Assembly (NCBI GenBank): GCA_026396015.1 | Contig: JAPLXP010000007.1 | Span: forward strand, 1-48,005 | Reading direction: 5' to 3' | Source of the DNA: Candidatus Nomurabacteria bacterium | Lineage (GTDB): Bacteria; Patescibacteriota; Minisyncoccia; Phycocordibacterales; UBA9973 | DNA length: 48,005 nt | Part shown: positions 1 through 48,005 of the stretch, in pieces | How the letters are laid out: every line of letters starts with the position of its first letter | Numbering within the stretch: position 1 is the first letter of the stretch | Translations under genes and position numbers: made by a program | Notes under the pieces: generated by a model | Databases searched by the model: none | Told to the model about the DNA's origin: nothing | The model's input: only the letters and a program-made list of their open reading frames with translations

Positions 1-407
1 AGAAAATTTCAGAAAAACAGATCAAGGAAGAAATAAATTTAATAAAAAATAAAATAGTAGAAATCACCACTGTTCTAAAAAAAGAACCCGAAACAGAAAC
101 GAAACCAAAGATTCGCATAGATTTACGAGGTTATATTTTTATAAAAGACCAACAAGAAAATGGTATGAAAGTTGGTGACAAAAAATTAGAGATTTTGAGA
201 GTTCTGTCAGACAAAAAACCTAAAACAATGTTTCAAATAGCAGAGATGGTTAAATACAAAGATGATCGAAGAGTTGTTCCCGCAATTACAGAAATAAATA
301 ATTCTATTAAAAAATTAACTGGTGGTAGCGATTTAATTATTAACCTTGGTGCTGGGTATTGTTTTAATACATCGAATCTTTTAATCTCATTTATAAATAA
401 AAAATAG
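1..407 (+). CDS. OmpR/PhoB-type winged-helix DNA-binding protein; 5' end lies outside the window
   Basis: The frame of the 165..407 track ORF stays open back to base 3 (KISEKQIKEE...IRIDLRGYIFIKD...). The C-terminal part fits the trans_reg_C pattern (KLEILRVL, VVPAITEINNSIKKL, GAGYCF). TAG stop, followed by a terminator. Confidence 0.55.
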   Translation, partial: KISEKQIKEEINLIKNKIVEITTVLKKEPETETKPKIRIDLRGYIFIKDQQENGMKVGDKKLEILRVLSDKKPKTMFQIAEMVKYKDDRRVVPAITEINNSIKKLTGGSDLIINLGAGYCFNTSNLLISFINKK

Positions 408-422
408 CCACTTATCCACAGT

Positions 423-456
423 AAAAAATAACCTTATTAAATAAGGTTATTTTTTT
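423..456 (+). terminator. intrinsic terminator
   Basis: ATAACCTTAT (428-437) pairs with ATAAGGTTAT (441-450); flanked by an A-run and a 6-T run. Confidence 0.7.
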
Positions 457-525
457 GCGTTAAATGCGTGTAGCGTGAGGATGCAGACAAGTTACCGACA
501 AAAAAGTTAATGAGACAATGAGTCC

Positions 526-687
526 ATGGTGATAATAATTACACGTAAGGCAAAAAATAAAAGAGAAACAAAGCAAATCAGAATAGTTTCAGATTTGCAC
601 GAGAAACTCTTATTTAAAGCAAATGAAGAGAATCTTACATTATCAAAGACGATTGAAAAAATATGTCGTCAGTATTTTAGCAAATGA
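526..687 (+). CDS. small ribbon-helix-helix (CopG/Arc-like) DNA-binding protein; not in the ORF track (53 aa)
   Basis: My translation: MVIIITRKAKNKRETKQIRIVSDLHEKLLFKANEENLTLSKTIEKICRQYFSK. It has a basic N-terminus, a beta-strand (KQIRIV) and a helix-helix layout. Its TGA overlaps the ATG of the next ORF (ATGA at 684-687). Confidence 0.45.
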   Translation: MVIIITRKAKNKRETKQIRIVSDLHEKLLFKANEENLTLSKTIEKICRQYFSK

Positions 688-872
688 TCAATTTAAGCAC
701 ACAAGCAATAGAAGAATTACGAATTGCTCTCCAAAAATCATATGGGGTTGATTTTGCTTGTGGCTTATCAGATGAAGAAGTTAATGAAATTGGGAATTTA
801 CTTATTTCATCTCTTGCAGAAAGTTTGAATGTAAAAATTGCAAAGCCTGAAGTGTCTACAGTAAGTATGTAG
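684..872 (+). CDS. hypothetical protein (62 aa), translationally coupled to the RHH ORF
   Basis: Track ORF; ATGA overlap with the upstream ORF; TAG stop. No recognisable domain. Confidence 0.4.
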   Translation: MINLSTQAIEELRIALQKSYGVDFACGLSDEEVNEIGNLLISSLAESLNVKIAKPEVSTVSM

Positions 873-1267
873 GTAGTTCAGGATCTGTAATTGGATCCAT
901 ACAATGTCATAATAAACTCTTTATGGGGCAGAGAGTATAACTAAGCTCCAACAAAACTTCTACTGCTTGGTTCAGCACAGAAGCAAAACCCTTAAGGAAT
1001 ATTAAGGTTCAAATGCGAAAGCTGGGAAAATGGTGGTCACGCCTTCCACCCAGCCATCTGATTTGCATCGTAATGTTTCAAGATATAAATGGAGTTATGT
1101 AAGTGAAATGAAATACCGAGTTTTAATCAAAACTAGTTTCACTGAAAGGTACTCGCATTGTATATCTCAAATACCTTGACTACATATTCAGATAAGTGAA
1201 GTTGATTTATTATCTTTTCTTATCACAAAACACCCTCTTGCTATAGCTAATATCGTAAAGGTAAGGC
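873..1267. other. ORF-free, relatively GC-richer, hairpin-dense segment (candidate structured RNA or cis-acting site of the mobile element)
   Basis: No ORF of 60 aa or more on either strand. Several local stems are visible, e.g. GCTGGG..(TGG..CCA)..CCCAGC, CTTCT.CTGCT/AGCA.AGAAG, and GTGAAA..AGTTTTaatcAAAACT..TTTCAC. Confidence 0.3.
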
Positions 1268-1549
1268 GTGGAGTGGGTAAAATTATTAAGTAAAAACAAA
1301 AAACAAATTATGAGAAGCATAAAAAGCAGATTTGATAAAATACAAAATAAGTATCCTTCTCTTGGAGCTTGTATTATTCTTGCTCAAGCAGTCAGAGGAA
1401 GAAGATTCACTCAAAGTTCTATAACGAGAGAATTCACGAAATTAGTGCCGAAAGATGAATATGACAAAAAGGAGCGTAGGACAATAATAAAGTTTCTTGT
1501 AGAAGTTTCAAACACCTTGGAGGACGACACGATAACAATGAAAAATTAG
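1268..1549 (+). CDS. hypothetical protein (GTG start in track; ATG at 1310 is an alternative)
   Basis: Track ORF, TAG stop, no recognisable domain. Confidence 0.4.
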   Translation: MEWVKLLSKNKKQIMRSIKSRFDKIQNKYPSLGACIILAQAVRGRRFTQSSITREFTKLVPKDEYDKKERRTIIKFLVEVSNTLEDDTITMKN

Positions 1550-1647
1550 CCGGTAAGAGAATTTAAAGGTCTGGTCAGTAAAGATATCATTAAGCACTAA
1601 AAGTTTCCCCAGAAGAGAAAAAATTACAAATATGTTAAAATTGTAAG

Positions 1648-1761
1648 TGCTACACCAAAGGAATTATAAAAATGTGCTATTTGTGCATTTTTGTATATAA
1701 AAACGAGGCAATGACCTTCCTTTGGTGTAGCAACTAAAAGTAATCGTCGTTGCCTCATTTT
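1648..1761 (+). promoter_or_regulatory. two interlocked long hairpins in the leader of the recombinase gene
   Basis: Perfect 16-bp stem 1648-1663 / 1717-1732 with a 53-nt loop. A second 15-position stem (13 Watson-Crick, 1 GU, 1 mismatch) pairs 1700-1714 with 1747-1761; its left arm lies in the first loop. A T-run follows, with the ATG at 1767. Confidence 0.4.
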
Positions 1762-1766
1762 TATTT

Positions 1767-3461
1767 ATGAATAATTACAAAAATCTAGATACAAGTAAAT
1801 TAAATTATATTATCTACTGTCGTAAATCAAGCGAGGGTGAAGATAAGCAAGTTCAATCTCTTGATACTCAATTAAGAGAATTGGAAGATCACGCAAAAAG
1901 AAATGGTTTAAATATAATAGAGGTTATTTCAGAGAGTAAAAGCGCCTTTAAAATTGGACGCCCAGGATTCGATAGAATGATGAACCTAATAAAAATAGGT
2001 AAGGCTAACGCAGTTTTAGTTATTCGTGCGAATCGTATATCAAGAAATTCTATAGATGCAGGATACGCAATTTCTTTAATGGATGAAAAGAAATTATTAT
2101 ACATCCGAACCCCTAATTCTACTTGTTACACATGCTCTTCAACAGACAAAATGATGATAGCTCTAGAATTGATTTTTTCCAAGAAAGATAGTGATGAAAA
2201 GGGTGATATGGTGAAAGAAGGACAAATGTCAAAAGCACTAAAAGGTATTCCTCATGGACGAGCTTGTCTAGGATTTTTAAATGACAAATCAGAAGAGAAA
2301 GGAAATAGAAAATGGTTAATAGATGAAATAAGGTTAGGTAAAATAAAAATATTATTGGATATGTTTCTAACTGGCACACATTCTGCTGGAAAGCTATATA
2401 AGTATGCAATAAATGATCTTAAATTAACTACTGTAGGCAAAAAAAGACAAGGAGGACAACTTATTGTAATGTCTCGTATTTATGAGATTTTAAAAGACCC
2501 AATTTATTCTGGATTTTTCTTTTACGGAGGAGAAAGGTATGAACTCGATAGGAATCTTCCAAGACTTATAACAGAGGCACAACACAATAAAATTAAACAA
2601 ATATTATCCAGAAAAAATATACCAAAATCACAACATCACGAAGCTGTATATGCAGGTTTTATACAATCAACAGAAGGAAACTATATGGGGTTAGATCCAA
2701 AGTTCCAAGTAATTTGTGATTGTAAGAAAAAATTTGCTTATAGAGATAAAACCCATTGTCCTCAATGTAGAGTTAATATTGATAGAATGGAGAATCCTAA
2801 ATATTTGGATTATTCGCATTATTATGATGTAAAGAAAAAGAAAGCTTCACTACCATATAAATGTATTTCTGAAAAAAATATTACGAAAGAAATGATTAAA
2901 TACATAAATGAAAATTTAAATTTCTCTAATGATTTATTGGAATGGTCTAAAAAATATATATATGAAATGAAAGACCAAGAAGTTTCAGCGAAGGTTTTAA
3001 TTTCAAAAGACAGAGAAAACAGAAAAGAAGATTATGAATTAAAAAAATCAAAATTAAGAGGAATGCTTCGTGATGGAAAAATAACAGACGATGAATACAA
3101 TATAGATCTTGAATTTTTAAATAAGGAATATACTGATACAAATATTGAAGTACAGAATGTGGATTGGTATCAAGAGATGATGGATATTACTAATTTGACT
3201 CAAGGTGTAGTTGAGGTATTGCAAAATGGTTCATTTCAATCAAAAAGAAACATACTTTCAAAGCTTGGTTCGAACCTAGTGTGGAATGACGAGAAACTCA
3301 GTATTTACAACAGAAAATCAATAGAAGCTCTTGTTAAAGGTATAAAAAGTATTAAATCAATATATCCAAAGTTCGAACCTAGTTTATCTTTTGCAGAGCA
3401 AGGCTTAAATGAAAAAACAAGCGAGTTTTCGCTTGTTAATTCTACTATGCTCCCCCGGTAG
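1767..3461 (+). CDS. large serine recombinase (integrase/resolvase family)
   Basis: N-terminal resolvase domain (YIIYCRKSSEGEDKQVQSLDTQ, ANRISRN), a recombinase domain, a zinc ribbon (CDCKKKFAYRDKTHCPQC) and a coiled-coil tail. The last 12 nt overlap tRNA-Asn on the opposite strand. Confidence 0.9.
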   Translation: MNNYKNLDTSKLNYIIYCRKSSEGEDKQVQSLDTQLRELEDHAKRNGLNIIEVISESKSAFKIGRPGFDRMMNLIKIGKANAVLVIRANRISRNSIDAGYAISLMDEKKLLYIRTPNSTCYTCSSTDKMMIALELIFSKKDSDEKGDMVKEGQMSKALKGIPHGRACLGFLNDKSEEKGNRKWLIDEIRLGKIKILLDMFLTGTHSAGKLYKYAINDLKLTTVGKKRQGGQLIVMSRIYEILKDPIYSGFFFYGGERYELDRNLPRLITEAQHNKIKQILSRKNIPKSQHHEAVYAGFIQSTEGNYMGLDPKFQVICDCKKKFAYRDKTHCPQCRVNIDRMENPKYLDYSHYYDVKKKKASLPYKCISEKNITKEMIKYINENLNFSNDLLEWSKKYIYEMKDQEVSAKVLISKDRENRKEDYELKKSKLRGMLRDGKITDDEYNIDLEFLNKEYTDTNIEVQNVDWYQEMMDITNLTQGVVEVLQNGSFQSKRNILSKLGSNLVWNDEKLSIYNRKSIEALVKGIKSIKSIYPKFEPSLSFAEQGLNEKTSEFSLVNSTMLPR

Positions 3462-3521
3462 GGAGCGAACCTACGACCAATCGATTAACAGTCGATTGCT
3501 CTACCGCTGAGCTACAGGGGA
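3450..3521 (-). tRNA. tRNA-Asn (anticodon GTT), CCA not encoded
   Basis: Hand fold: TCCCCTG TA GCTC AGCGGTA GAGC A ATCGA CTGTTAA TCGAT TGGTC GTAGG TTCGCTC CCTAC CGGGGGA G. All four stems pair; discriminator is G. Confidence 0.9.
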
Positions 3522-4898: not shown

Positions 4899-5831
4899 AT
4901 GAAGAGAACTTTTAAACTTTTTACTATCATTACTTTTTGTGTATTTTCACATAAAATTTACGCTCAACCATTCTATTCTGGGGAGATATTTATAGATAGT
5001 CTTACTTCAGGTAAAACTACTATAGGTATCTATGGCAAGTATGATCCTGTGGGTGTAAAGACCACAATCACAGCTTTTGCAAATGGTGTAGCTTGCTCCA
5101 TGGATACTGTATACAGTATAGGTGTGAACCCCTTTAATATCAGGATTGTGAATTTATCACCAGGTTCTGATTATTATGTATATTTATTTTTCTCAAATTT
5201 TTATGGTTCTGACACTGTTGACTTAGGTAGGATTACTACTCTTTACGATAATCACAACAATAATATTTTTAGGATTAAAAATACATTATTCACTAGGAAT
5301 ATAGGATCTAGTAATGTTGAGTTGCGGGGGATAATAGATTTGTCACCCAAATCAACAGCTGTAGCTTTTTGTGCTATCTATTCAGATAGTCTTTGTAAAA
5401 AGATGATTGGAAATATGAGCACAAGACTGAATTATTCAAATAATTATTCATTTGAATACATGTATGATTTATATTATAGTTTTAAAATAGACACACTAAA
5501 TAATTCTTCAGTGTATGGTAAATTTTGGGGTAGTGACAATATTGGTCATTCTGATTCTGATACTATTCCATTAAAATTAAATACTATAAATAAAAAAGGT
5601 ACTACATCTGGTGTTGATGAATTTGAATTTGGTAAAAAAGATATTTCGGTCTATCCGAATCCTGTAAATGACTTTTTGTATTTTTCTGAAACAGAAGATT
5701 ATAAAATATTTAATCTTTTTGGTCAGGTTGTAAAAAATAATCATGGTAACTGTGTAAATCTGAGTGATATACCTACTGGTATATATATGATTAATATTGG
5801 ATCAAAAAGAATTCAATTCTTCAAAAATTAA
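4899..5831 (+). CDS. secreted protein with T9SS-type (Por) C-terminal sorting domain
   Basis: Signal peptide MKRTFKLFTIITFCVFSHKIYAQ. The C-terminal ~70 aa (ISVYPNPVNDFLYFSETEDYKIFNLFGQVV...LSDIPTGIYMINIGSKRIQFFKN) match the type A CTD pattern (VYPNP..D.L.., G..V, GIY). Confidence 0.75.
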   Translation: MKRTFKLFTIITFCVFSHKIYAQPFYSGEIFIDSLTSGKTTIGIYGKYDPVGVKTTITAFANGVACSMDTVYSIGVNPFNIRIVNLSPGSDYYVYLFFSNFYGSDTVDLGRITTLYDNHNNNIFRIKNTLFTRNIGSSNVELRGIIDLSPKSTAVAFCAIYSDSLCKKMIGNMSTRLNYSNNYSFEYMYDLYYSFKIDTLNNSSVYGKFWGSDNIGHSDSDTIPLKLNTINKKGTTSGVDEFEFGKKDISVYPNPVNDFLYFSETEDYKIFNLFGQVVKNNHGNCVNLSDIPTGIYMINIGSKRIQFFKN

Positions 5832-37520: not shown

Positions 37521-37546
37521 AAAACCACTCAAATTTGAGTGGTTTT
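37521..37546 (+). terminator. intrinsic terminator
   Basis: AAAACCACTCAAATTTGAGTGGTTTT. Confidence 0.8.
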
Positions 37547-37615
37547 ATTATTTTGACTTAGATTCATATATAGAGTAGACTAGGCTTAAATTCACCCTTT
37601 AAAAAATATATAATT

Positions 37616-39076
37616 ATGCAAGAAGAAGATGGAAATGCAAACAGTACCAGTAAGGTAAAAGTTGCAGTAAAAAAAGTAGCAAGATCTACCAAAAAAAATG
37701 TAGTAAAAGTTGCAGTAAAAAAACCAAATGTTCTTAGAAAAAAAACAACATCCAAGAACAAGGTTAAAAAAATTTTTGTTCTAGATACGAATGTACCATT
37801 ACATGATCCAAATTGCTTAAGATGTTTTGAGAATAATGATATTATCATTCCTCTGGTTGTTATACAAGAGCTTGATCCTTTTAAAAAGGGGTCTGATACT
37901 ATTAACCTGAATGCTAGAAGTTTTTTGAGACAATTAGATAAGATTTCTTCAAAAGAAGGTTTTAACGGTGGAGTTAGTTTAGGCAGGGGTTTAGGAATAC
38001 TAAAAGTAGTTTTAAATCAACCTTACTCTGAATTCATAAAAGCACAACTGTATCCAGAGAGCGTAGATAATTCAATTATTAACATTGCTTATGATATAAA
38101 GCAAAAAAATATCAATACTGAAGTTGTTCTTGTTTCAAAAGATGTAAATGTATTGGTAAAGGCAAGATCATTAGGTATTGCTGCACAAGATTTTCGTTTT
38201 GAAAAGGTTGATAATGTTGATTTTTTATCAGAAGAAATTAAAACAATAAAAGTATCAGAATCTATTATTGATTCTATATATGAAAATCGTGAGGTGCTTT
38301 ACGCAATAAAAGGTGCGACAGTAAATCAGAATTATATTTTAAAGTGTAATCATGGAAATAAAACAGCTATGGCTGTTCACCAGGAAGGTATTTTGAAACT
38401 AATTAAAAAAGATGATTTATGGGCGTTCAGTGTTAAACCAAACAACGCAGAGCAATCTTTTGCAATGAATGCGTTACTAGATCCTGATATCTCAATTGTA
38501 ACGATAGAAGGAGAGGCGGGTACTGGTAAAACATTGGCTGCATTAGCTACTGCTTTTGAACAAACAAAAAAAGGTAAAAATTCTAAATATGGAAAAATAT
38601 TTTTTGCTCGAAAAATAATCTCTGTTGGTGCTGCTGAAATTGGTTTTCTACCTGGCGATGCTCAGGACAAGATGAATCCTTTTATGGGTGGAATGCTTGA
38701 TAATTTAGAATACTTAGAATCATTGAGTGATAAAAATGCAACAATTGTTTTAGAATTTAAAAATAAAAATATTTTTTCTGTTGAAGCATTGGGTTTTATC
38801 CGAGGTAGAAGCTTGCGTAATATATTTTTTATCATCGATGAGGCTCAAAATTTAACACCTCATGAGGTTAAAACAATTGTTAGCCGTGCTGGTATGGGAA
38901 CTAAGATTGTATTGATAGGGGATACTCATCAGATAGATAGTCCATTTCTGAATGAAAGTTCTAATGGATTTAGTTATTTGATTGATAAATTCCGTGGTCA
39001 ACCAATATATTCACATATTCATTTAGTTAAAGGTGAGAGATCACCCCTTGCTGAATTGGCAGGTAAATTATTGTAA
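37616..39076 (+). CDS. PIN domain + PhoH-like ATPase (YlaK-type) with a Lys-rich N-terminal tail
   Basis: FVLDTNVPLHDP (PIN), GEAGTGKT (Walker A), IIDEAQNL (Walker B), and the PhoH C-terminal motifs. Confidence 0.85.
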   Translation: MQEEDGNANSTSKVKVAVKKVARSTKKNVVKVAVKKPNVLRKKTTSKNKVKKIFVLDTNVPLHDPNCLRCFENNDIIIPLVVIQELDPFKKGSDTINLNARSFLRQLDKISSKEGFNGGVSLGRGLGILKVVLNQPYSEFIKAQLYPESVDNSIINIAYDIKQKNINTEVVLVSKDVNVLVKARSLGIAAQDFRFEKVDNVDFLSEEIKTIKVSESIIDSIYENREVLYAIKGATVNQNYILKCNHGNKTAMAVHQEGILKLIKKDDLWAFSVKPNNAEQSFAMNALLDPDISIVTIEGEAGTGKTLAALATAFEQTKKGKNSKYGKIFFARKIISVGAAEIGFLPGDAQDKMNPFMGGMLDNLEYLESLSDKNATIVLEFKNKNIFSVEALGFIRGRSLRNIFFIIDEAQNLTPHEVKTIVSRAGMGTKIVLIGDTHQIDSPFLNESSNGFSYLIDKFRGQPIYSHIHLVKGERSPLAELAGKLL

Positions 39077-39097
39077 AATTGTAACTTATTTAAAACC

Positions 39098-39129
39098 AAA
39101 AATCCTGATGAAAATCAGGATTTTTTTTA
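39098..39129 (+). terminator. intrinsic terminator
   Basis: AAAAATCCTGAT gaaa ATCAGGATTTTTTTT. Confidence 0.85.
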
Positions 39130-39290
39130 TTTGGAATTCTATTTCAAATGTGAGCCACAATAATTTACTTGCCGCTCATAAATTTGAAAGCAAACGGACT
39201 CGGTTATCTTTCCACTAAAAAATTATGTCTCCGTCTTCACAAAAGCGAAACAGACTGGAATAGTCCAGTATTTTTGAATTCGCGCTTTTG

Positions 39291-39362
39291 TGACCCTACA
39301 GGGAATCGAACCCTGATTACCGCCTTGAGAAGGCGATGTCCTAACCGTTAGACGATAGGGCC
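39291..39362 (-). tRNA. tRNA-Glu (anticodon CTC), CCA not encoded
   Basis: Hand fold: GGCCCTA TC GTC TAACGGTTA GGAC A TCGCC TTCTCAA GGCGG TAAT CAGGG TTCGATT CCCTG TAGGGTC A. Confidence 0.9.
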
Positions 39363-39406
39363 AAGTGAGTAGATAATAGCATAAATAAATAAAGTTGTAA
39401 AAAATT

Positions 39407-39781: not shown

Positions 39782-39933
39782 AAAATTTTTGTAGTTATTA
39801 ATAATAGAAGATTACTTCTTATTATATTTATTATAGACTATTTATTTTTAAAAATAAATAGTCTATAAACATAATTATTATTTATATTTTAAACATGTTT
39901 GTTTTTATTGTTAATTTGAGTCATTATGTGTGT

Positions 39934-40155
39934 ATGTATATAAAAGTCGCAGTAGTGGCAGGAGCCAAGAAGGAGATAGTGGTTCGTGATAGAGAGGATC
40001 ACTACACTATTACTGTGCGTGAGCCAGCCGAGCGCAATTTAGCTAATACTCGCATAAGAGAGATCATCGCCCACGAGGTATCTGTACCAGTAGGTAAGGT
40101 TCGTCTAATATCTGGCCATCAGAACCCTCACAAAATACTCTCGATAATGGACTAA
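39934..40155 (+). CDS. DUF167 (YggU-like) family protein
   Basis: MYIKVAVVAGAKKEIVV...YTITVREPAERNLANTRIREIIAHEVSVPVGKVRLISGHQNPHKIL matches the DUF167 pattern. The track start (39895) is probably too early. Confidence 0.7.
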   Translation: MYIKVAVVAGAKKEIVVRDREDHYTITVREPAERNLANTRIREIIAHEVSVPVGKVRLISGHQNPHKILSIMD

Positions 40156-40173
40156 TATAGTCCATTATTTTTG

Positions 40174-40202
40174 TTTAACTTGCGCTCTGGTCGTGATATA
40201 AT
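40174..40202 (+). promoter_or_regulatory. hpf promoter (leaderless-type)
   Basis: TTTAAC (40174-40179), a 17-nt spacer, then TGaTATAAT (40194-40202). The ATG at 40209 is 6 nt after the -10 box. Confidence 0.6.
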
Positions 40203-40208
40203 AGTAGT

Positions 40209-40592
40209 ATGAATATCAATATAAAGGGTACGCAAATGGAGTTGACTGATGCGATCCGTGACTATGTCACAAAGCGTGTCGAGTCCCTCGAAAAATTTAT
40301 TAAGGATGACAGTGCTACGGTTTATGTGGAAGTAGGCAAGACTACTCACCACCACAAGAATGGAGATTTCTTTAGGGCAGAATTTGATCTCAGAATGTCT
40401 GGACAAAAATTCTTTGCTTCATCAGAAAAAGAGGATTTGTACAGTGCTATCGATGACGCAAAAGAGGAAATTTCTCGAGCTATGACTTATCAAAAAGATA
40501 AGAAGGAAAATCTCTACCGAAGAGGTGCTCGCAGTGTCAAAAAGATGATCAAAGGTCTATCAAAAAGAAATCCGTTCACTTCAAAATATTAA
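40209..40592 (+). CDS. hpf: ribosome hibernation promoting factor (HPF/RaiA family, short form)
   Basis: MNINIKGTQMELTDAIRDYVTKRVESLEKF...AEFDL...GQKFFASSEKEDLYSAIDDA. Confidence 0.85.
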   Translation: MNINIKGTQMELTDAIRDYVTKRVESLEKFIKDDSATVYVEVGKTTHHHKNGDFFRAEFDLRMSGQKFFASSEKEDLYSAIDDAKEEISRAMTYQKDKKENLYRRGARSVKKMIKGLSKRNPFTSKY

Positions 40593-40596
40593 AAAC

Positions 40597-40642
40597 AGAC
40601 TAAACAAAAATCACCCCTAATGGGGTGATTTTTGTTTAGTCT
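40597..40642. terminator. unusually long (21-bp perfect stem) bidirectional terminator
   Basis: AGACTAAACAAAAATCACCCC taat GGGGTGATTTTTGTTTAGTCT. The right arm overlaps the last codons of the MerR-type gene. Confidence 0.8.
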
Positions 40643-40923
40643 CGAAGGTGGAGGACTTTGAGTTGGTATGTCTTTGGCTTGTCACTCTCTGGAGCCTTCT
40701 TTTCCTTTTTGGGTCGAAGGGTAGGTTTCTCACCAGACTCCATCTTGGTGATTAACTTCTCAATATCTTCTCGGAGGTATACTCGGTAGTTGCTGATCGG
40801 GTGGCGACGGGCCTCTAGCTTGCCACTCTTGTCCCAGTTGCGGAGGGTGAGGGCTGTGACTCCGAGCATCTCTGATGCTTCTTTAATGTTTATATATAAC
40901 TTATTCATGTATATAGTATACAT
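40636..40923 (-). CDS. MerR/excisionase-type HTH DNA-binding protein with a Lys/Pro-rich tail; compositionally GC-rich
   Basis: INIKEASEMLGVTALTLRNWDKSGKLEARRHPISNYRVYLREDIEKL. Alternative start at 40908 (MNKLY). Confidence 0.7.
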   Translation of the reverse strand: MYTIYMNKLYINIKEASEMLGVTALTLRNWDKSGKLEARRHPISNYRVYLREDIEKLITKMESGEKPTLRPKKEKKAPESDKPKTYQLKVLHLRD

Positions 40924-41436
40924 TAGTAAACATTAATAAACAATACTAAATACGGCAAATCTATATAAGAATATTAATAACTCTTATTAGGGTTTAGATA
41001 TCTTTATGTATTACTTTTGTTAAGGTTTAATATAGATATATATTTATTAAATTATGTTTATTTTTCTAAAGTTAATAATATTTTAATACAAAAAGTTTAG
41101 TAATATTATTAATAATAAATAATAGGGAAGTCGTACCTATCTATGTGTTCACAATTACAATCTGTGTAGGGTATAATTCCCTATTTTATTTTCGCAATTC
41201 TTAATAAGAGCATTTGTATGTTATTTATCAGATATGATTTATAATATAAACATAACAAATTAATACTACCCTTACCATTTAACTGTAGAATAATTTTTAT
41301 AAAAAATTTATTTTTAAAAAATATTTTTGAAAATAAAAAAGTTATCAACAGTTTTTTATAAAAAAATTTTGTTTTAATATCAGCGTAGTGTTATACTTTT
41401 TTGTAGAGAAATATTTTAGAACAAAAAATAATTTAA

Positions 41437-43986
41437 ATGAGAAAATTTTTCAAAAAAATAATTAAAGAAAATGTTCTAATTGCTAAACATGATCATAAAA
41501 AAGATCTTAGATATTTTTACAACCTCCGAGTAAAAAAAATAATAAAAAATAAAATTGATAACGAAAATAAATGGTACAAAAATTACAAGGAAAAAATTAC
41601 TGAGGTGAGAATCGAAGGAGAAAATAAAAATCAAATCTACAAAAATAAAATTTACAAAATATTAACTAATCTAAAAAATATAAATTATAACTTCATGAAA
41701 AAAATATTATCAAAACTAAATAAAGTGCTAAGGAAAAATTTCTTCGCAATCGCTCCTCGGTTTGCTGTTGCAGTTTTGATTGTGTCTACAATTTTTTCAT
41801 TTTCTTATAATCCTCAAAAAGCTTATGCTGCGACTTGTGTGACATTGTCTCCAGGTTCATATACGGCGACAACATTCAATACCGCTGTATCGAGTTGTAT
41901 TGCTGGAAGTAATGATATTGTGATTAGCGGTGCTGTCACATTTGCTGCTGGTACATACAATATCGGAAGTGCTAACTTGGTAATAAATAATGGAGGTACT
42001 CTTACTGTGCAATCTTCATCTACTACAAGTACTGGTGCTACTGGTGTGATTATTAGTGGTTCCGGTAATGTTACTGTTAATACTGGAGGTACTATCACTG
42101 GTGTGGGAACTGGTTATGCAGGAGGTACTGGAGAGGTCAGTGGGTATGGTGAGGGTGGGGGTATTGCAAATGGTACTATAGGATATTTTTCTGGAGCTGG
42201 TGGTGCCCATGGTGGTGCAGGTGGAAGAGGTAATGATTCATCTGCCTCTGGTTCTGTTAAGAGTTCTGCTTATGATACTTATAATGCCCCAGTAAGACCT
42301 GGTTCTGGAGGTGCAGGTACTGGGTCTGGTGGCAAAACTGGTACAGCTGGAGGAGGTGCAATTAAATTGAGTACTACTGGTACTGTAACTTTGAATGGTT
42401 CTATTAATATGAGTGGTGCAAATTATACTACAGCAGGATCGAACTGCCCTGGTGTCGGTGCTGGAGGAAGTATTTGGATTGTTGCAGGTACTCTTGCTGG
42501 ATCAAATGCAGGATTACTTAGTGCAAATGCTGGTGCATTTGATAATGTTGCTAATTGTGCTACTAATCCTGGTGGAGGTGCTGGTGGAGGTATGATTTAT
42601 CTAGATTCTACAAATGATACTTATGCTGGGTCTATAACTGTTGCTAGTAGTGCTGGTATTGAAGGAGGTGAGACTGGAACTGTGGGAAGAAATGTAGTCA
42701 CTCCTGGTAATATTTTAATTACAGGAAACAGTACTGTTACTTGGACAAGAACAAATTCACCATCAAATGTGTCTGGCGACTTTAAATTCAGCAATCTTCA
42801 GATTGATTCAGGATCAACTATTACGACTGGGTCTGCTGAAGCTAGTGGTGTGGGTGCAAATAACCCAGGACCAGTTGTTAATGTGAATGGTGGTCCTTTA
42901 CCTGGTCAAACTTCATACAATGGAGGAGGAGGAGGAGGTCACGCCGGTGCAGGTGCAAATGGTGATTATGGTTATGGTGGTCTTGGTGGTTCTTCTGATG
43001 GTGGAGGGTCGCAAGTCTCTGCTCCTACTTATATGGGTTCTTCTGGTGGAGGAAAATTTAATAGTGGCTACTCATTGGGGGGTGCAGGTGCAGGTGCTTT
43101 AAAATTAACAATAACTGGAACTCTTACAAATAATGGAAGTATAAACGCGAACGGAGGGTCTGTTACTGGCGGCGGCGGTGGTGGATCTGGAGGAAGTATT
43201 TGGATTAATTCACCTACTGGAATAGTAACAGGTACTGGTAGTTATACTGCAAATGGAGGAAATGGAGGTGATGGTTATTTAATTACTCCAGCTACTTATC
43301 CTTCAGGGGGTTCAGGTGGACGTATCTCATTTACTGCAGGTGCAACATTTTCTAGTTTTTCACCTTCATCTTTGACTGCTAGTGCGGGTACTGCTTATCG
43401 TGAAAATACACACATTACTAACAATGGTGCCGCGGGTACTGTTTCTGGTGTTGTAGTTTCTTCTGTGACTACACCTACTGCTGGATCATTCAATAATTCT
43501 ACTGGTTTTGATTCTGGAAACAAAATCACTGGTACTGCTGGTGACTATGGTGGAGGAACTATATCTAGTGTTCAAGTTTCTATAAAGAACAATACCACTG
43601 GTTTTTGTTGGAATGGTACTAATTTTACTACAGCTGCTTGTGATAACTGGATTAATGTGACTTCGGGCACAACTTCTTGGTATTATACTGGATTGACTAG
43701 TTCTAGTCTGACAAATGGAGTAAATTATACAATAAAATCAAAAGCTACATCAAGTGGTGGTACAGAGACTCCGGGTTCAGGTACTACATTTACATACGAC
43801 AGTAGTAATCCAACATCTACAATCTCAAGTCCATCTACTGGTACGTATTCAAGTAGTACAACTGTCTCTCTCTCTGGTACATCATCTGATACAAACCTTT
43901 CAACAACCACTATTTCTGTAGATGGTGGAGCATTCGTTGCTATACATCATCTGATACAAACCTTTCAACAACCACTATTTCTGTAG
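41437..43986 (+). CDS. giant secreted/surface protein, part 1 (ends at a frameshift-induced TAG); likely signal peptide at internal ATG 41695
   Basis: Track ORF. MKKILSKLNKVLRKNFFAIAPRFAVAVLIVSTIFSFSYNPQKAYA|AT, then ~500 aa of Gly-rich repeats (GGGAIKL, GAGGSIWIVAG, GGGAGGGMIYL, GGGGGSGGSIWINS), then Ig-like segments. Confidence 0.85.
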   Translation: MRKFFKKIIKENVLIAKHDHKKDLRYFYNLRVKKIIKNKIDNENKWYKNYKEKITEVRIEGENKNQIYKNKIYKILTNLKNINYNFMKKILSKLNKVLRKNFFAIAPRFAVAVLIVSTIFSFSYNPQKAYAATCVTLSPGSYTATTFNTAVSSCIAGSNDIVISGAVTFAAGTYNIGSANLVINNGGTLTVQSSSTTSTGATGVIISGSGNVTVNTGGTITGVGTGYAGGTGEVSGYGEGGGIANGTIGYFSGAGGAHGGAGGRGNDSSASGSVKSSAYDTYNAPVRPGSGGAGTGSGGKTGTAGGGAIKLSTTGTVTLNGSINMSGANYTTAGSNCPGVGAGGSIWIVAGTLAGSNAGLLSANAGAFDNVANCATNPGGGAGGGMIYLDSTNDTYAGSITVASSAGIEGGETGTVGRNVVTPGNILITGNSTVTWTRTNSPSNVSGDFKFSNLQIDSGSTITTGSAEASGVGANNPGPVVNVNGGPLPGQTSYNGGGGGGHAGAGANGDYGYGGLGGSSDGGGSQVSAPTYMGSSGGGKFNSGYSLGGAGAGALKLTITGTLTNNGSINANGGSVTGGGGGGSGGSIWINSPTGIVTGTGSYTANGGNGGDGYLITPATYPSGGSGGRISFTAGATFSSFSPSSLTASAGTAYRENTHITNNGAAGTVSGVVVSSVTTPTAGSFNNSTGFDSGNKITGTAGDYGGGTISSVQVSIKNNTTGFCWNGTNFTTAACDNWINVTSGTTSWYYTGLTSSSLTNGVNYTIKSKATSSGGTETPGSGTTFTYDSSNPTSTISSPSTGTYSSSTTVSLSGTSSDTNLSTTTISVDGGAFVAIHHLIQTFQQPLFL

Positions 43987-44007
43987 ATGGTGGAGCATTC
44001 GTTGCTA
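43878..44007 (+). repeat. perfect 65-bp tandem direct duplication (43878-43942 = 43943-44007)
   Basis: Base-by-base comparison of the two copies shows them identical. 65 is not divisible by 3, so the reading frame shifts. Confidence 0.95.
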
Positions 44008-47000
44008 CAGGTGGTACAGCTGCTTCATGGACATACTCTGCAACAGGGCTTTCTTCTGGTGCACACACATTTCAAACTAAAGGTACAGACTTGGCTGGAA
44101 ACACAGGTCTATCTTCTGTTGTTACTGTGACTGTCGATAATACGAATCCAACATCTGCAATTTGTAGTGTCGGTGGTAATGGATGTACTCCCTCTGGTCA
44201 ATCTGCTAATCCGCAACAAGCTTATAGCGTACAATCTATTTCTGGAACTGCGAGTGATACTAGTGGATCAGGGGTGACTTCTGTAAATATTTCAATATTA
44301 GATTCTACGACAAGTAGGTATTATACAGGTTCTACTTTTACAAGTATTAGTCAGGTTTACCTGAGTGCTGCTGGTACAAATACATGGACTTATTCTACTT
44401 CAGGTGTTCCGTTTACTGTCGGTGATAGATATGTATTAAATGTAAGGTCCCATGATCTTGCTGGAAATACAGAGACAGCTGTTGCTTTGACTTTTGATGT
44501 TACAAATTCTCCACCAACAGTATCAAATGTAACAGCATCTGAAAACAGTAGTGGTGTGGTGACTGTAGGATATGATGTGGCTGATGTGGAATCTTCTCAG
44601 ACTACAAACTATCTATTCTACGGAGTTGGGGCTACACTCAATGGGTCGCTAACTAGTGGGGCTTCATCAATAACAGTTTCTAGTGGTACATATTTTCCAA
44701 GTTCTGGTACAATATTTATTAACGATGGTTCAGATGGAGTAAATGAAATAATAAATTACTCAAGTAAATCTGGGAATGTTCTTAGTGGACTTACAAGAGG
44801 TGCTTCTAATTCCTCTGCCCTTTCTCATAATTCTGGAGTCTCTGTATACATAAATGCTAGTTCTGCGAGTGGAACTGGAATTGGTCTTTCAAATAAGGGT
44901 ACAGGAAAAACAATATCTTGGACTGCTCGTACTGATGCAGATGGATATCAAAACGCTACTGAAAATATAATAGTTGTCGCGAATGATGGATCTGTTGGAT
45001 CTATGCTTGGTCGTGCTACAAACTCAAGCACATTTAATCTTGATGCCGCAAAGACGACAGGTAATAGTGCATCAATTTTAATAAACAATAATGATGGTAC
45101 ACTTGGTAATGTTGTAAGTTCTTCAAATGTTATTACTCTTAAAATTCAAAATATTACTGGTTCTCCTGCAAGTGAAAATATAAAAGTACAATTCTCACGT
45201 GATGGATCAACATGGTTTGGAGCAAATGCAAATGGAACAATTTCTGTTGATTCTACAAGCACATCCTTTGCTTCTGATTCTACAACTATTGGTGCACTTT
45301 CATGGCCTTGGACAATGGCGTCTCGTTCTGAGACCATACAAGTAAGAATAATAGATTTATATTCAAATGGAAATTTGTCAGTTGTAGATAGTAATACTGT
45401 AGGATTCAATGCTACTCCGCAATTTGATGCGACATTTGGAACCGGTGGCATGAGTGTCACTCAAATTTCTGATAGTAATGATTCTCATTTTGGACAAGTC
45501 AAGATTGATTATAAAGTTCGTGATACTGACAATACAACCGCTACACCTGCATTTAGTTATGATGCAGCTGGTGGTACAAGCTATACGACTATAAACAATA
45601 GTCAAATAACAGGAATTAGTGCTGCTATAACTTCTACATATACACAGCACACTGTGTATTGGACTCCAACAGCTGAATCTATTTCATCAGCACTTACAAA
45701 ATTCAAGGTAACTCTAGATGACGGTGAAGCTGTTGTGAATACCACATCACAAACTATTTCTTCTATAATAATTGATGCAAAAATACCAGTAGTTTCTACT
45801 CCTATTACTTTTGATGCAGGTGAAGCAGGTATCTCAAATTCTGCTACGATTACAATTCCAAGGCCTGCAGATGATTCAAGTGTACAATATAGAATAACAG
45901 ATGATTCAATAACACAAGATAAGGCTACTGTAGTAGATACTGGGTGGGTAAATCTTCCTTCTTCAACTTCAATACCTTGGACTCTTGACTCAGATATTGA
46001 ATCAAAGACTATTAAATATCAATTTAGAGATTTGTATGGAAATACTACGACTCTTGCTTTTGCTTCAACACCAACTCCAGTAGCAGCAAATTCATTTACT
46101 ATTCAAGATATTTCAAATACGCCAACTAATTATTATGGTATGTATATTGGATGGAACGATCCTGCAAAAATAGGTACATACAAAATGGAGCATGCTACAT
46201 CTAGTGATAATAATACTTATGGATCTTATTCAGATGTGAATACTGTTGGTGAAATTGTATCTGATAATAATGGAAATTATCATTTCCTTGATCTCGGCTT
46301 GGATTCTACTAAATATTATAGATATAGATTAGGTGTTGTTGGTGGGGGTAATACTTCTGTACGTGCTGGTGCTTATGTAACTGTTCGCCCGGATGGAGTT
46401 CAAAACTTTAGTGAAGGAGGTGGTGGAAGTGTTGCTACCGCTTCAAAAGTTGAAAATGTGGTACCTACACAAGATCCAAACAATAAGACAGTTTCTGTGA
46501 CATATAAATTGACAGATTCATCTAATTCACAAAAAACTAATTTATCATATGAAGGTAGAATTTTTTACAACATTGGTATCACATTACCATTAAGTGCTTT
46601 AACTGGTTCAAATTTGACTGTTTCTGATGCTTCAAAATTAGGAACAAGTGGCTACATTCAAATCAACAACGAAGTTCTTCAATATACAGGAAAGAGCGGC
46701 AATGTTCTTTCTGGAATTGTTCGCGCAACGTGGCCAGGTGGAACAAGAACAACAAGACAAAATGCAACATTGTTTGCTGGTAATCAAGTATGGGTAATGG
46801 CAAATACTGTGACTCCAACTACTATTACAAATAGTACTATTTCAACAGGTCAGACAGGAACAATTGTTTGGAATACATATAACGATATAACTTTAAATGG
46901 ATCTTCGTATTCAAATGTGGGAGTGAGAGTGCTAGTTCACGATAATCAAGCAGGTGCCTCAGGTCCTCTTTCAAGTCAAAATGATTATTCAACAGATGCG

Positions 47001-48005
47001 ACACTTTCTACCTTTGATTTGTCTGCCCCTTTAGTTGCTTTTAGCCAGACGTCTGGATCTAACCCTCAGAATGTATTAAATCCAACACCATTTAGAATTT
47101 CTCTTTCTAGAGTATATCCTATTAATGTAACTGTTCATTATAATGTTACAGGAACAGCTGTCGGAGGTGGAGTAGACTATACTCTTGCAAGTGGAACGGC
47201 AACAATTACAGCAGGACAGCTATATACAGATGTAGTTGCTCCAACTATTATTGACCACAATAATACTCGAACAAATAAGACTATAATTGTAACTCTATCA
47301 GCACCTACAAGTTCAACATTGGGAATAGATACTGTATATATTTATACAATTATAAATACGCAATCTGATACTACACCTCCCGTGATTGTGTTAAAGGGTC
47401 AAAACCCTGATCTTTCAATAGATTCAATCACAAATCCAGATACGCCTATACATATAATGAGTGGTACTATCTTTGTAGATCCTGGGGTTGATGTGACAGA
47501 TGATGTTGATGGATTATGTACTTATACTACTGACCAAGGAACACCTTCTAATGGATGTACATATTTTAATCAGGTAAATGTAGATACAAATAACCCTGGT
47601 ACTGGTCAAGTTGTCTATACAGCAATTGATACCTCAGGGAATAGATCTACTGATCTTTTACGTCAAGTTATTGTTGATGATGCAAATGCTGTAACTTATT
47701 TGATTACAACAGATGCTGGTGCGCATGGTAATATATCTCCGATGAATCCTAGTGTGCAGACTGGAACAGATCAAGAATTTACAGTCACACCAAATACCGG
47801 ATACAAGGTTGCAACAATTTCTATTGATGGGGGAGCATCCCTTCTTCCGTCTGCTGGTGTGAATACCTACACATTCACAAACGTATTAACCACACACACT
47901 ATCGCAGCAACATTCTCTGATAATCTCGCTCCGGTTATCACAATCACAGGTGCTAACCCAGCATCAGTTACTCGTGGATCATCATACACAGATGCTGGTG
48001 CAACA
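43944..48005 (+). CDS. giant surface protein, part 2 (continuation in another frame; open to the window end, 3' partial)
   Basis: My translation from 43944 (TSSDTNLSTTTISVDGGAFVATGGTAASWTYSATGLSSGAHTFQTKGTDLAGN...) has no stop up to 48005. It contains Ig-like repeats, a Calx-beta-like domain (~47030-47360), DUF5011-like segments and an InlB-B-repeat-like segment. Confidence 0.85.

What the first reader, a model, noticed from the sequence alone, without database searches (positions are those of the whole stretch)
43878..44007. Perfect 65-bp tandem duplication splits a >2,100-codon surface-protein gene
Segments 43878-43942 and 43943-44007 are identical base for base. The unit length of 65 nt is not a multiple of 3. 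The frame starting at 41437 therefore reads ...ISVDGGAFVA, then IHHLIQTFQQPLFL, and stops at TAG 43984-43986. The second copy, read from 43944, gives TSSDTNLSTTTISVDGGAFVATGGTAASWTYS... and stays open to base 48005. Deleting one copy restores a single ORF of 2,168 codons inside the window, still open at the 3' end. Three explanations are possible: a local assembly error, a very recent inactivation, or a duplication/deletion on-off switch for a surface antigen.
Basis: seen in the sequence. Interest (0 to 1): 0.7.

Follow-up and report, generated by a model that had tools for sequence, protein, structure and literature searches.

The report
65-bp duplication breaking giant surface gene
A perfect back-to-back 65-base duplication splits a very large surface-protein gene of an uncultured ultra-small bacterium; it is either a very recent knock-out mutation or an assembly error, and nothing shows it is a purpose-built on/off switch.

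Summary
Segments 43878-43942 and 43943-44007 are identical. They are the only exact repeat of 25 nt or more in the contig. Removing one copy fuses two frames into an uninterrupted 2,168-codon ORF.

The window is a complete 48,005-bp contig of a Patescibacteria (CPR) MAG held at NCBI. There the gene is annotated as two proteins, of 849 aa and 1,305 aa (partial). The gene encodes a giant secreted protein with Ig-like domains. Intact relatives are about 3,000 aa long, and the single-copy frame aligns colinearly with them across the junction. The duplication sits inside an Ig-like domain.

The junction is blunt, with no microhomology. There is no simple-sequence tract, no hairpin and no slippery site. 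The homologue whose DNA could be read has no tandem repeat.

Independent k=31 assemblies of the same strain (Logan, three sequencing runs, 99.9-100% identical) all stop at 43836, 42 nt before the duplication. Neither the one-copy nor the two-copy form predicts that end. The locus therefore has a further sequence context in the samples. The contigs that would cross the junction could not be retrieved.

Verdict: real recent frameshift about 0.45; assembly artefact about 0.40; evolved switch about 0.07. Interest is low.

The parts
43878..43942 (+). Copy 1 of the 65-nt unit TACATCATCTGATACAAACCTTTCAACAACCACTATTTCTGTAGATGGTGGAGCATTCGTTGCTA
   Evidence: 100% identical to copy 2
43943..44007 (+). Copy 2 of the 65-nt unit. 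The junction 43942|43943 (GCTA|TACA) is blunt, with no microhomology.
41437..43986 (+). Upstream fragment of the split gene (849 aa; deposited at NCBI as a separate protein, P0126). It ends in 14 out-of-frame residues and the TAG at 43984-43986.
41695..41829 (+). Probable true start and signal peptide (MKKILSKLNKVLRKNFFAIAPRFAVAVLIVSTIFSFSYNPQKAYA|A)
   Evidence: Read from the sequence; inference, no signal-peptide predictor was run
43984..43986 (+). Premature TAG stop created by the frameshift
43944..48005 (+). Downstream part of the same gene in the -1 frame, open for 1,354 codons to the contig end. NCBI annotates a 1,305-aa 3'-partial CDS from TTG 44091 (P0149).
43807..44156 (+). The Ig-like (Big_13-type) domain that holds the duplication. 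It is bracketed by the 12-mer AATCCAACATCT (NPTS) at 43807-43818 and 44145-44156, which are 273 nt (91 codons) apart in the single-copy form.
   Evidence: Big_13 E=1.7e-5, 25.7 bits, just under the 27-bit cut-off; homologues carry Big_13/Big_7 hits; the 12-mer was read
43806..43837 (+). Branch point of independent k=31 assemblies. Logan contigs of the same strain from three runs all end at 43836.
   Evidence: the simulation shows the window's own sequence does not predict this end

Best explanation
The 65-nt tandem duplication is real and very recent. It arose inside the coding sequence of a giant secreted Ig-domain surface protein of a Patescibacteria (CPR) bacterium.

The insert is 65 nt (3 x 22 - 1), so the ribosome leaves the frame in the middle of an Ig-like domain, reads 14 wrong residues and stops. 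The cell then makes at most a truncated N-terminal fragment: signal peptide, Gly-rich region and half an Ig domain. The remaining 1,330 or more codons have no start or export signal of their own and are silent.

This is a loss-of-function allele of a surface protein, a class of gene that is often lost or varied within populations. Like any perfect tandem repeat it can revert by precise deletion of one copy through slippage or recombination, so the inactivation is reversible in principle. Nothing indicates the locus evolved to switch.

Shown: the sequence structure, the frame consequences, and that the single-copy form is ancestral. Inferred: that the junction exists in real molecules, the consequences for expression, and the reversibility.
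For: - The copies are identical, and the downstream 1,354 codons are still free of stops in a 37% GC genome. The event is therefore younger than any second disabling mutation.
- The single-copy frame aligns colinearly with giant homologues that no stop interrupts, P0005 (3,005 aa, partial) and P0006 (2,942 aa, complete).
- The contig has no Ns, no other exact repeat of 25 nt or more and no other strong tandem repeat. It therefore shows no sign of scaffolding, gap filling or a systematic duplication error.
- A unit of 65 nt is not the final k-mer of the common default settings of MEGAHIT, metaSPAdes or IDBA-UD (my own knowledge). A de Bruijn graph assembler cannot create a unit-to-unit junction unless reads contain it (inference).
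- The strain is a real, widespread population, present at 99.9-100% identity in three independent sequencing runs.
- Frameshifting tandem duplications that switch genes off and revert by loss of the duplication are documented in Streptococcus pneumoniae cap3A, cap8E and tts.
Against: - No read-level or independent-assembly evidence for the junction could be obtained. The unit has no exact match in three public contig collections, and the two-copy product is not on record elsewhere.
- The junction has 0 nt of microhomology, which is less usual for replication slippage and is what blunt concatenation of overlapping contig ends gives.
- Independent k=31 contigs break 42 nt upstream in three runs for a reason not contained in the window. 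The assembly graph is therefore tangled exactly here, which is where local assembly errors concentrate.
Confidence: 0.45

Rival explanations
1. Assembly artefact. The true genome has one copy, or a different arrangement of this Ig-domain region, and the second copy was introduced during assembly. Possible routes are two contig ends overlapping by 65 nt being abutted without trimming (scaffolding, gap closure, contig merging or bin re-assembly), or a polymorphic or repeated domain region being mis-traversed.
For: - The duplicate is exact, directly abutting and blunt, with no microhomology.
- Duplicate sequence at scaffold joins, a wrong number of local repeats and other local errors are documented for metagenome assemblies. 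One curated 1.13-Mb CPR genome had 13 local assembly errors, one of them in a repeat-containing protein gene. Contig ends typically overlap by k or k-1.
- Logan k=31 contigs from three runs end at 43836. The inferred shared stretch would begin at 43807, the 12-mer that marks the Ig-domain boundary. This implies a second sequence context next to the duplication.
- The gene runs off the contig end, so the assembler had trouble with it.
- Both NCBI proteins are singletons with no relative at 90% identity or more.
Against: - There are no Ns anywhere in the contig and no second such duplication.
- 65 is not a standard final k (my own knowledge).
- Graph assemblers do not invent junction k-mers, so a post-assembly step is needed, and there is no sign of one.
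- The attempt to infer the assembler's k from the contig's 5' end was inconclusive: the Logan contig starts at 164, which fits no standard k.
Confidence: 0.4
2. Evolved duplication/deletion phase variation. The locus is prone to tandem duplication and precise excision, so the population toggles the surface protein off and on, as in pneumococcal capsule genes.
For: - The target is a giant surface protein, the class of gene usually subject to phase variation.
- A perfect 65-nt tandem repeat is intrinsically unstable and reverts precisely. The mechanism is known.
- The unexplained graph branch, whose inferred shared stretch begins at 43807, could be the junction of a second, different duplication in the same domain. 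This is speculation.
Against: - There is no simple-sequence tract, flanking microhomology, hairpin (z = -0.13) or recombinase site.
- The giant gene on L012, the only homologue whose DNA could be read, has no tandem repeat.
- No assembly showing the other state was found.
- A single observed state cannot show switching.
Confidence: 0.07
3. The two frames are joined during translation by programmed -1 ribosomal frameshifting, so a full-length protein with a 22-residue insertion is still made.
For: The downstream frame is -1 relative to the upstream frame. The two frames overlap between 43890 and 43983.
Against: There is no X XXY YYZ heptamer in any frame in 43887-43986 and no significant local structure. 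The overlap is simply the duplicated unit.
Confidence: 0.01

Closest known systems
Tandem-duplication phase variation of pneumococcal capsule genes (cap3A, cap8E/wchA, tts; Waite et al. 2001, 2003, as cited in PMC11163986 and PMC4022640)
   Same: A perfect tandem duplication inside an ORF puts a surface structure in the off state. Loss of the duplication restores it. No dedicated recombinase or simple-sequence tract is needed.
   Different: In pneumococcus both states, the reversion and recurrent independent duplications were shown experimentally. Here only one state is seen, in one assembled contig of an uncultured CPR bacterium, and the junction itself is not verified in reads.
Local assembly errors in metagenome-assembled genomes (Chen et al. 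2020, PMC7111523)
   Same: Duplicate sequence at joins of overlapping scaffold ends and a wrong repeat number are both described there. Errors fall in repeat-containing genes of CPR genomes and produce broken gene calls in public databases.
   Different: The described duplicates flank inserted Ns. This contig has no Ns, and the 65-nt length matches no default k-mer.
Simple-sequence-repeat contingency loci (Haemophilus, Neisseria, Campylobacter; reviewed in PMC4235727)
   Same: A frameshift gives on/off control of a surface protein through a change in repeat copy number.
   Different: Those use many copies of 1-9-nt units and have high slippage rates. Here there are two copies of a 65-nt unit and no SSR.
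Giant Ig-like/fibronectin-III-domain surface proteins of Patescibacteria and other uncultured bacteria
   Same: N-terminal signal peptide, Gly-rich repetitive region, Big_13 and Bact_surface_Ig-like domains. The best relatives are 2,942-3,610 aa proteins from MAGs, including Moraniibacteriota and Pacebacteria.
   Different: The best relative is only 49% identical. There is no orthologue at 90% or more in 15 billion proteins.

Membership tests
Tandem-duplication phase variation (pneumococcal cap3A type) | Perfect tandem duplication inside an ORF that abolishes the product | tested here: met
   65 nt x 2.0 copies at 100% identity, with a frameshift and a TAG 14 codons later
Tandem-duplication phase variation (pneumococcal cap3A type) | Both states (with and without the duplication) coexist or interconvert in one lineage | not testable with these tools
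The Logan contigs of the same strain stop at 43836, and the contigs downstream could not be looked up.
Tandem-duplication phase variation (pneumococcal cap3A type) | Recurrent, independent duplications of different size or position in the same gene | tested here: inconclusive
   There is no other tandem repeat in the gene or in homologue L012. An unexplained second sequence context, whose inferred shared stretch begins at 43807, could be another junction or something else.
Simple-sequence-repeat contingency locus | A tract of many copies of a 1-9-nt unit in the ORF or promoter | tested here: not met
   TRF finds only short low-copy repeats (at most 5.7 copies of GGA) besides the 65-nt pair.
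Assembly artefact: untrimmed overlap at a contig join | Exact, directly abutting duplicate with a blunt junction | tested here: met
   0 nt of microhomology, exactly 2.0 copies
Assembly artefact: untrimmed overlap at a contig join | Duplicate length equals the assembler's k or k-1, and/or Ns at the join | tested here: inconclusive
   There are no Ns in the contig. The assembler and its k are unknown. The look-up designed for k=65 found nothing, and the Logan contig found at the 5' end starts at 164, which maps to no standard k.
Assembly artefact: untrimmed overlap at a contig join | No sequencing read spans the unit-to-unit junction | not testable with these tools
   No access to reads or to Logan unitigs by DNA sequence
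Programmed -1 ribosomal frameshift | Slippery heptamer X XXY YYZ in the frame overlap plus a downstream structure | tested here: not met
   There is no heptamer in 43887-43986 in any frame. The fold z-score is -0.13.
Bacterial Ig-like domain surface protein (Pfam Big_13 / Bact_surface_Ig-like) | Pfam domain hits at or above the gathering score | tested here: inconclusive
   Big_13 scores 25.7 bits against a 27-bit cut-off (E=1.7e-5). Bact_surface_Ig-like scores 20.5 against 27. Homologues P0001-P0006 carry precomputed Big_13, Big_7 and Bact_surface_Ig-like hits, and NCBI names P0005 'immunoglobulin-like domain-containing protein'.

The most novel reading that the evidence does not exclude
The Ig-like domain at 43.8-44.2 kb is a duplication-prone contingency region of a CPR giant surface protein. 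Several different tandem duplications arise and are precisely excised in the population: the 65-nt one assembled here, plus a second junction responsible for the graph branch whose inferred shared stretch begins at 43807. This would give reversible on/off control of a host- or phage-facing protein in an episymbiotic ultra-small bacterium, without SSRs or invertases.
Probability: 0.06. Interest if true: 0.6.

Novelty: new member of a known kind. Interest (0 to 1): 0.2.

Why it matters
If the duplication is real, it is one more natural knock-out of a giant surface protein in a CPR population. It would be of modest interest for how these episymbionts vary their cell surface.

If it is an artefact, it matters for database hygiene. 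NCBI currently carries two spurious proteins (849 aa and 1,305 aa) instead of one protein of about 3,000 aa.

It would become a notable finding only if reads showed mixed one-copy and two-copy states, or several different duplications. That would be duplication-based phase variation outside pathogens, in Patescibacteria.

Tried and rejected
- **Exact 22-26-mers in public contig collections.** I searched for pieces of the unit and for the contig's 3' end in genome contigs, metagenome contigs and viral contigs. There were 0 hits.
- **Protein-guided locus searches with the restored sequence.** These gave one distant relative (39%) in genomes and none in metagenomes.
- **Homologue searches.**
  - There were no near-identical proteins; the best hit was 49% identical.
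  - The tool did not return the window's own P0126, although P0126 is in the collection.
  - Logan's cut gene products are not in that collection. Absence there is therefore not evidence.
- **Look-ups of the two-copy products.** I tried the 849-aa, 763-aa and 59-aa versions. None is on record.
- **Inferring the MAG assembler's k from the Logan contig start at the 5' end.** Guesses for k=65 and k=141 were not found. The contig that was found starts at 164, which fits no standard k. The result is inconclusive.
- **Programmed frameshifting.** Rejected.
- **Hairpin or quasi-palindrome-driven duplication.** Rejected.
- **A 7-nt repeat as the cause.** TGGTACA lies near both boundaries, but slippage between those copies would give a 72-nt duplication, not 65 (rejected).
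- **Target-site duplication of an excised element.** Rejected, because 65 nt is far beyond known target-site duplications and nothing lies between the copies (inference).
- **Mis-resolved tandem duplication of the whole 273-nt Ig domain as the origin of the 65-nt repeat.** The arithmetic does not fit any single k (inference).
- **Papers naming the runs or samples.** None was found.

Full report
**1. Observation**

- Positions 43878-43942 and 43943-44007 are the same 65-nt string. Tandem Repeats Finder reports period 65, 2.0 copies and 100% matches.
- A k-mer count over the whole window shows this is the only exact repeat of 25 nt or more.
- The frame opened at ATG 41437 runs through copy 1, leaves the protein sequence at ...ISVDGGAFVA, reads IHHLIQTFQQPLFL and stops at TAG 43984-43986.
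- The frame starting at 43944 repeats TSSDTNLSTTTISVDGGAFVA and then stays open for 1,354 codons to the last base of the window.
- Removing one copy gives a 2,168-codon ORF without a stop.
- The repeat does not extend by a single base on either side, so the junction GCTA|TACA has no microhomology.

**2. Context**

The window is not a slice of something larger. Its proteins are recorded on a contig whose length is 48,005 bp, from an NCBI genome.

The neighbouring genes are ordinary bacterial housekeeping genes:
- MraZ/MraW, a PBP transpeptidase and a Mur ligase;
- PhoH, a hibernation factor, enolase and GAPDH;
- a P-type ATPase and two tRNAs.

The GC content is 31-42%. The enolase is at best 65% identical to any species representative, and the top hits are 'Candidatus Saccharibacteria' and Patescibacteria MAGs. 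The organism is therefore an uncultured CPR bacterium without a close sequenced relative.

NCBI's annotation treats the split gene as two proteins: 849 aa (41437-43986) and a 1,305-aa 3'-partial protein starting at TTG 44091. Each is a singleton at 90% identity among about 15 billion proteins.

**3. The gene**

The first 86 codons of the ORF are an AT-rich leader. A typical signal peptide follows Met 41695 (n-region rich in Lys, a hydrophobic core, then AYA|A) (read from the sequence).

The rest of the protein consists of:
- a long Gly/Ser/Thr-rich repetitive region;
- an Ig-like domain with a near-threshold Big_13 match;
- further beta-rich regions;
- a Bact_surface_Ig-like match near the contig end.

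The best relatives are giant proteins from MAGs:
- P0005 is 3,005 aa, 49% identical over 67% of the query. NCBI names it 'immunoglobulin-like domain-containing protein' and marks it partial.
- P0006 is 2,942 aa, 42% identical, and is a complete gene with neighbours on both sides.
- More distant relatives are fibronectin-III-type proteins of Moraniibacteriota and Pacebacteria.

Both P0005 and P0006 align across the junction with the restored, single-copy sequence and continue colinearly downstream. The single-copy ORF is therefore the ancestral, functional form. The duplication lies inside the Ig-like domain (residues 720-794 of the protein counted from Met 41695, with the junction at residue 749), not at a module boundary.

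**4. Features that could make this a device rather than an accident**

I found none.
- There is no simple-sequence tract.
- There is no flanking direct repeat that fits the 65-nt period. The nearby TGGTACA pair would give 72 nt.
- The single-copy DNA does not fold better than shuffles, with z = -0.13.
- The downstream frame is -1 relative to the upstream frame, but there is no X XXY YYZ heptamer in the overlap.
- There is no other strong tandem repeat in the contig or in the giant gene of homologue L012.

**5. Independent assemblies**

The same strain is present in three public sequencing runs assembled independently by Logan. Their contigs are 99.9-100% identical to the window.

I simulated a canonical k=31 de Bruijn graph of the window.
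- It reproduces the observed contig starts at 37525 and 39839 exactly. Both are caused by palindromes, which validates the model.
- If the reads carried two copies, the simulation predicts breaks at 43907, 43942, 43972 and 44007.
- If the reads carried one copy, it predicts no break anywhere in the giant gene.

The observed contigs are L014 from SRR20698640, an identical contig from a second sample, and L015 from ERR12084942. All end at 43836, which neither form predicts.

An end at 43836 has one of two meanings:
- the 31-mer 43807-43837 has a second predecessor in those samples, or
- a variant diverges at 43837.

Position 43807 is the first base of AATCCAACATCT (Asn-Pro-Thr-Ser). This 12-mer recurs at 44145 and brackets the Ig-like domain. 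A second copy or context of this domain start is therefore the most natural reading. It could be a tandem domain copy, a paralogous copy beyond the contig end, a mosaic strain, or another duplication junction. This remains an inference.

The contigs that continue past 43836 would settle the copy number, but I could not reach them. The two-copy-specific product is not on record.

**6. Other searches**

- Exact pieces of the unit and of the contig end have no match in the genome, metagenome or viral contig collections.
- Protein-guided searches found only a 39% relative.
- The attempt to read the MAG assembler's k from the offset between the contig's 5' end and the Logan contig was inconclusive. 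That contig starts at 164.

**7. Weighing the explanations**

Points for a real mutation:
- The contig is clean, with no Ns and no other such repeat.
- 65 is not a default final k.
- Graph assemblers cannot invent a unit-to-unit junction.
- Tandem duplications of this size are a known class of spontaneous gene-inactivating mutation. In pneumococcal capsule genes they act as reversible off states.

Points for an artefact:
- The blunt, exact abutment is what an untrimmed overlap looks like.
- Local assembly errors are documented in CPR genomes assembled from metagenomes. They include duplicate sequence at joins and a wrong repeat number, and one case lay in a repeat-containing gene.
- The only unexplained graph branch in the 5.8 kb of Logan contigs retrieved around the gene (37525-39364 and 39839-43836) lies 42 nt from the duplication. 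The locus is therefore tangled in the read data.

I put a real recent frameshift at about 0.45, an artefact at about 0.40, an evolved switch at about 0.07, and the remainder on other causes.

If the duplication is real, the intact 1,354-codon downstream frame and the identical copies mean it is very young. Its perfect repeat makes precise reversion possible. That is a property of the mutation class, not evidence of design.

**8. Verdict**

The choice between error and mutation needs reads, and the switch idea has no positive support.

The public annotation of two separate proteins is misleading in either case.

Noticed in passing
window 43806-43837 (and the 12-mers at 43807-43818 and 44145-44156): Independent Logan k=31 contigs of the same strain from three runs all end at 43836. 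The window's own sequence does not explain this end. The inferred shared stretch would begin exactly at the AATCCAACATCT (NPTS) motif that brackets the Ig-like domain. This suggests a second copy or context of this domain in the samples.
   Followed up: partly
window 1-3521: A serine recombinase gene (1767-3461, Resolvase + Recombinase domains) overlaps the 3' end of tRNA-Asn (3449-3521, minus strand). Logan contigs in this stretch have further unexplained ends: starts at 164 and 625, and an end at 1398. This looks like an integrated or variable mobile element at the contig's left end.
   Followed up: partly
window 4899-5831 (+): A 310-aa protein has a C-terminal Por_Secre_tail (type IX secretion sorting) domain, E=3e-10. 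This is unexpected in a Patescibacteria contig.
   Followed up: no
window 39831-39868 and about 37524-37554: A 38-nt perfect AT-rich palindrome lies upstream of the DUF167/hibernation-factor genes, and a terminator hairpin follows the Mur ligase gene. Both coincide exactly with Logan contig starts.
   Followed up: partly
window 24606-24648 and 25034-25082: Two nearly identical terminator-like hairpins (AAAAAACCTGAACGAAATTTCGTTCAGGTTTTTT) flank the small ORF 24704-25039.
   Followed up: no
window 41437-41694: The annotated start of the giant gene includes 86 AT-rich, Lys/Asn-rich codons before a canonical signal peptide. Met 41695 is the more plausible start.
   Followed up: partly
L013 (ENA GROS21-1 scaffold_3002, 20,156 bp): A relative about 87-90% identical at the DNA level is syntenic from the transketolase genes to the hibernation factor. 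Its contig ends just before the position of the giant gene, so this gene also terminates assembly in the relative.
   Followed up: no
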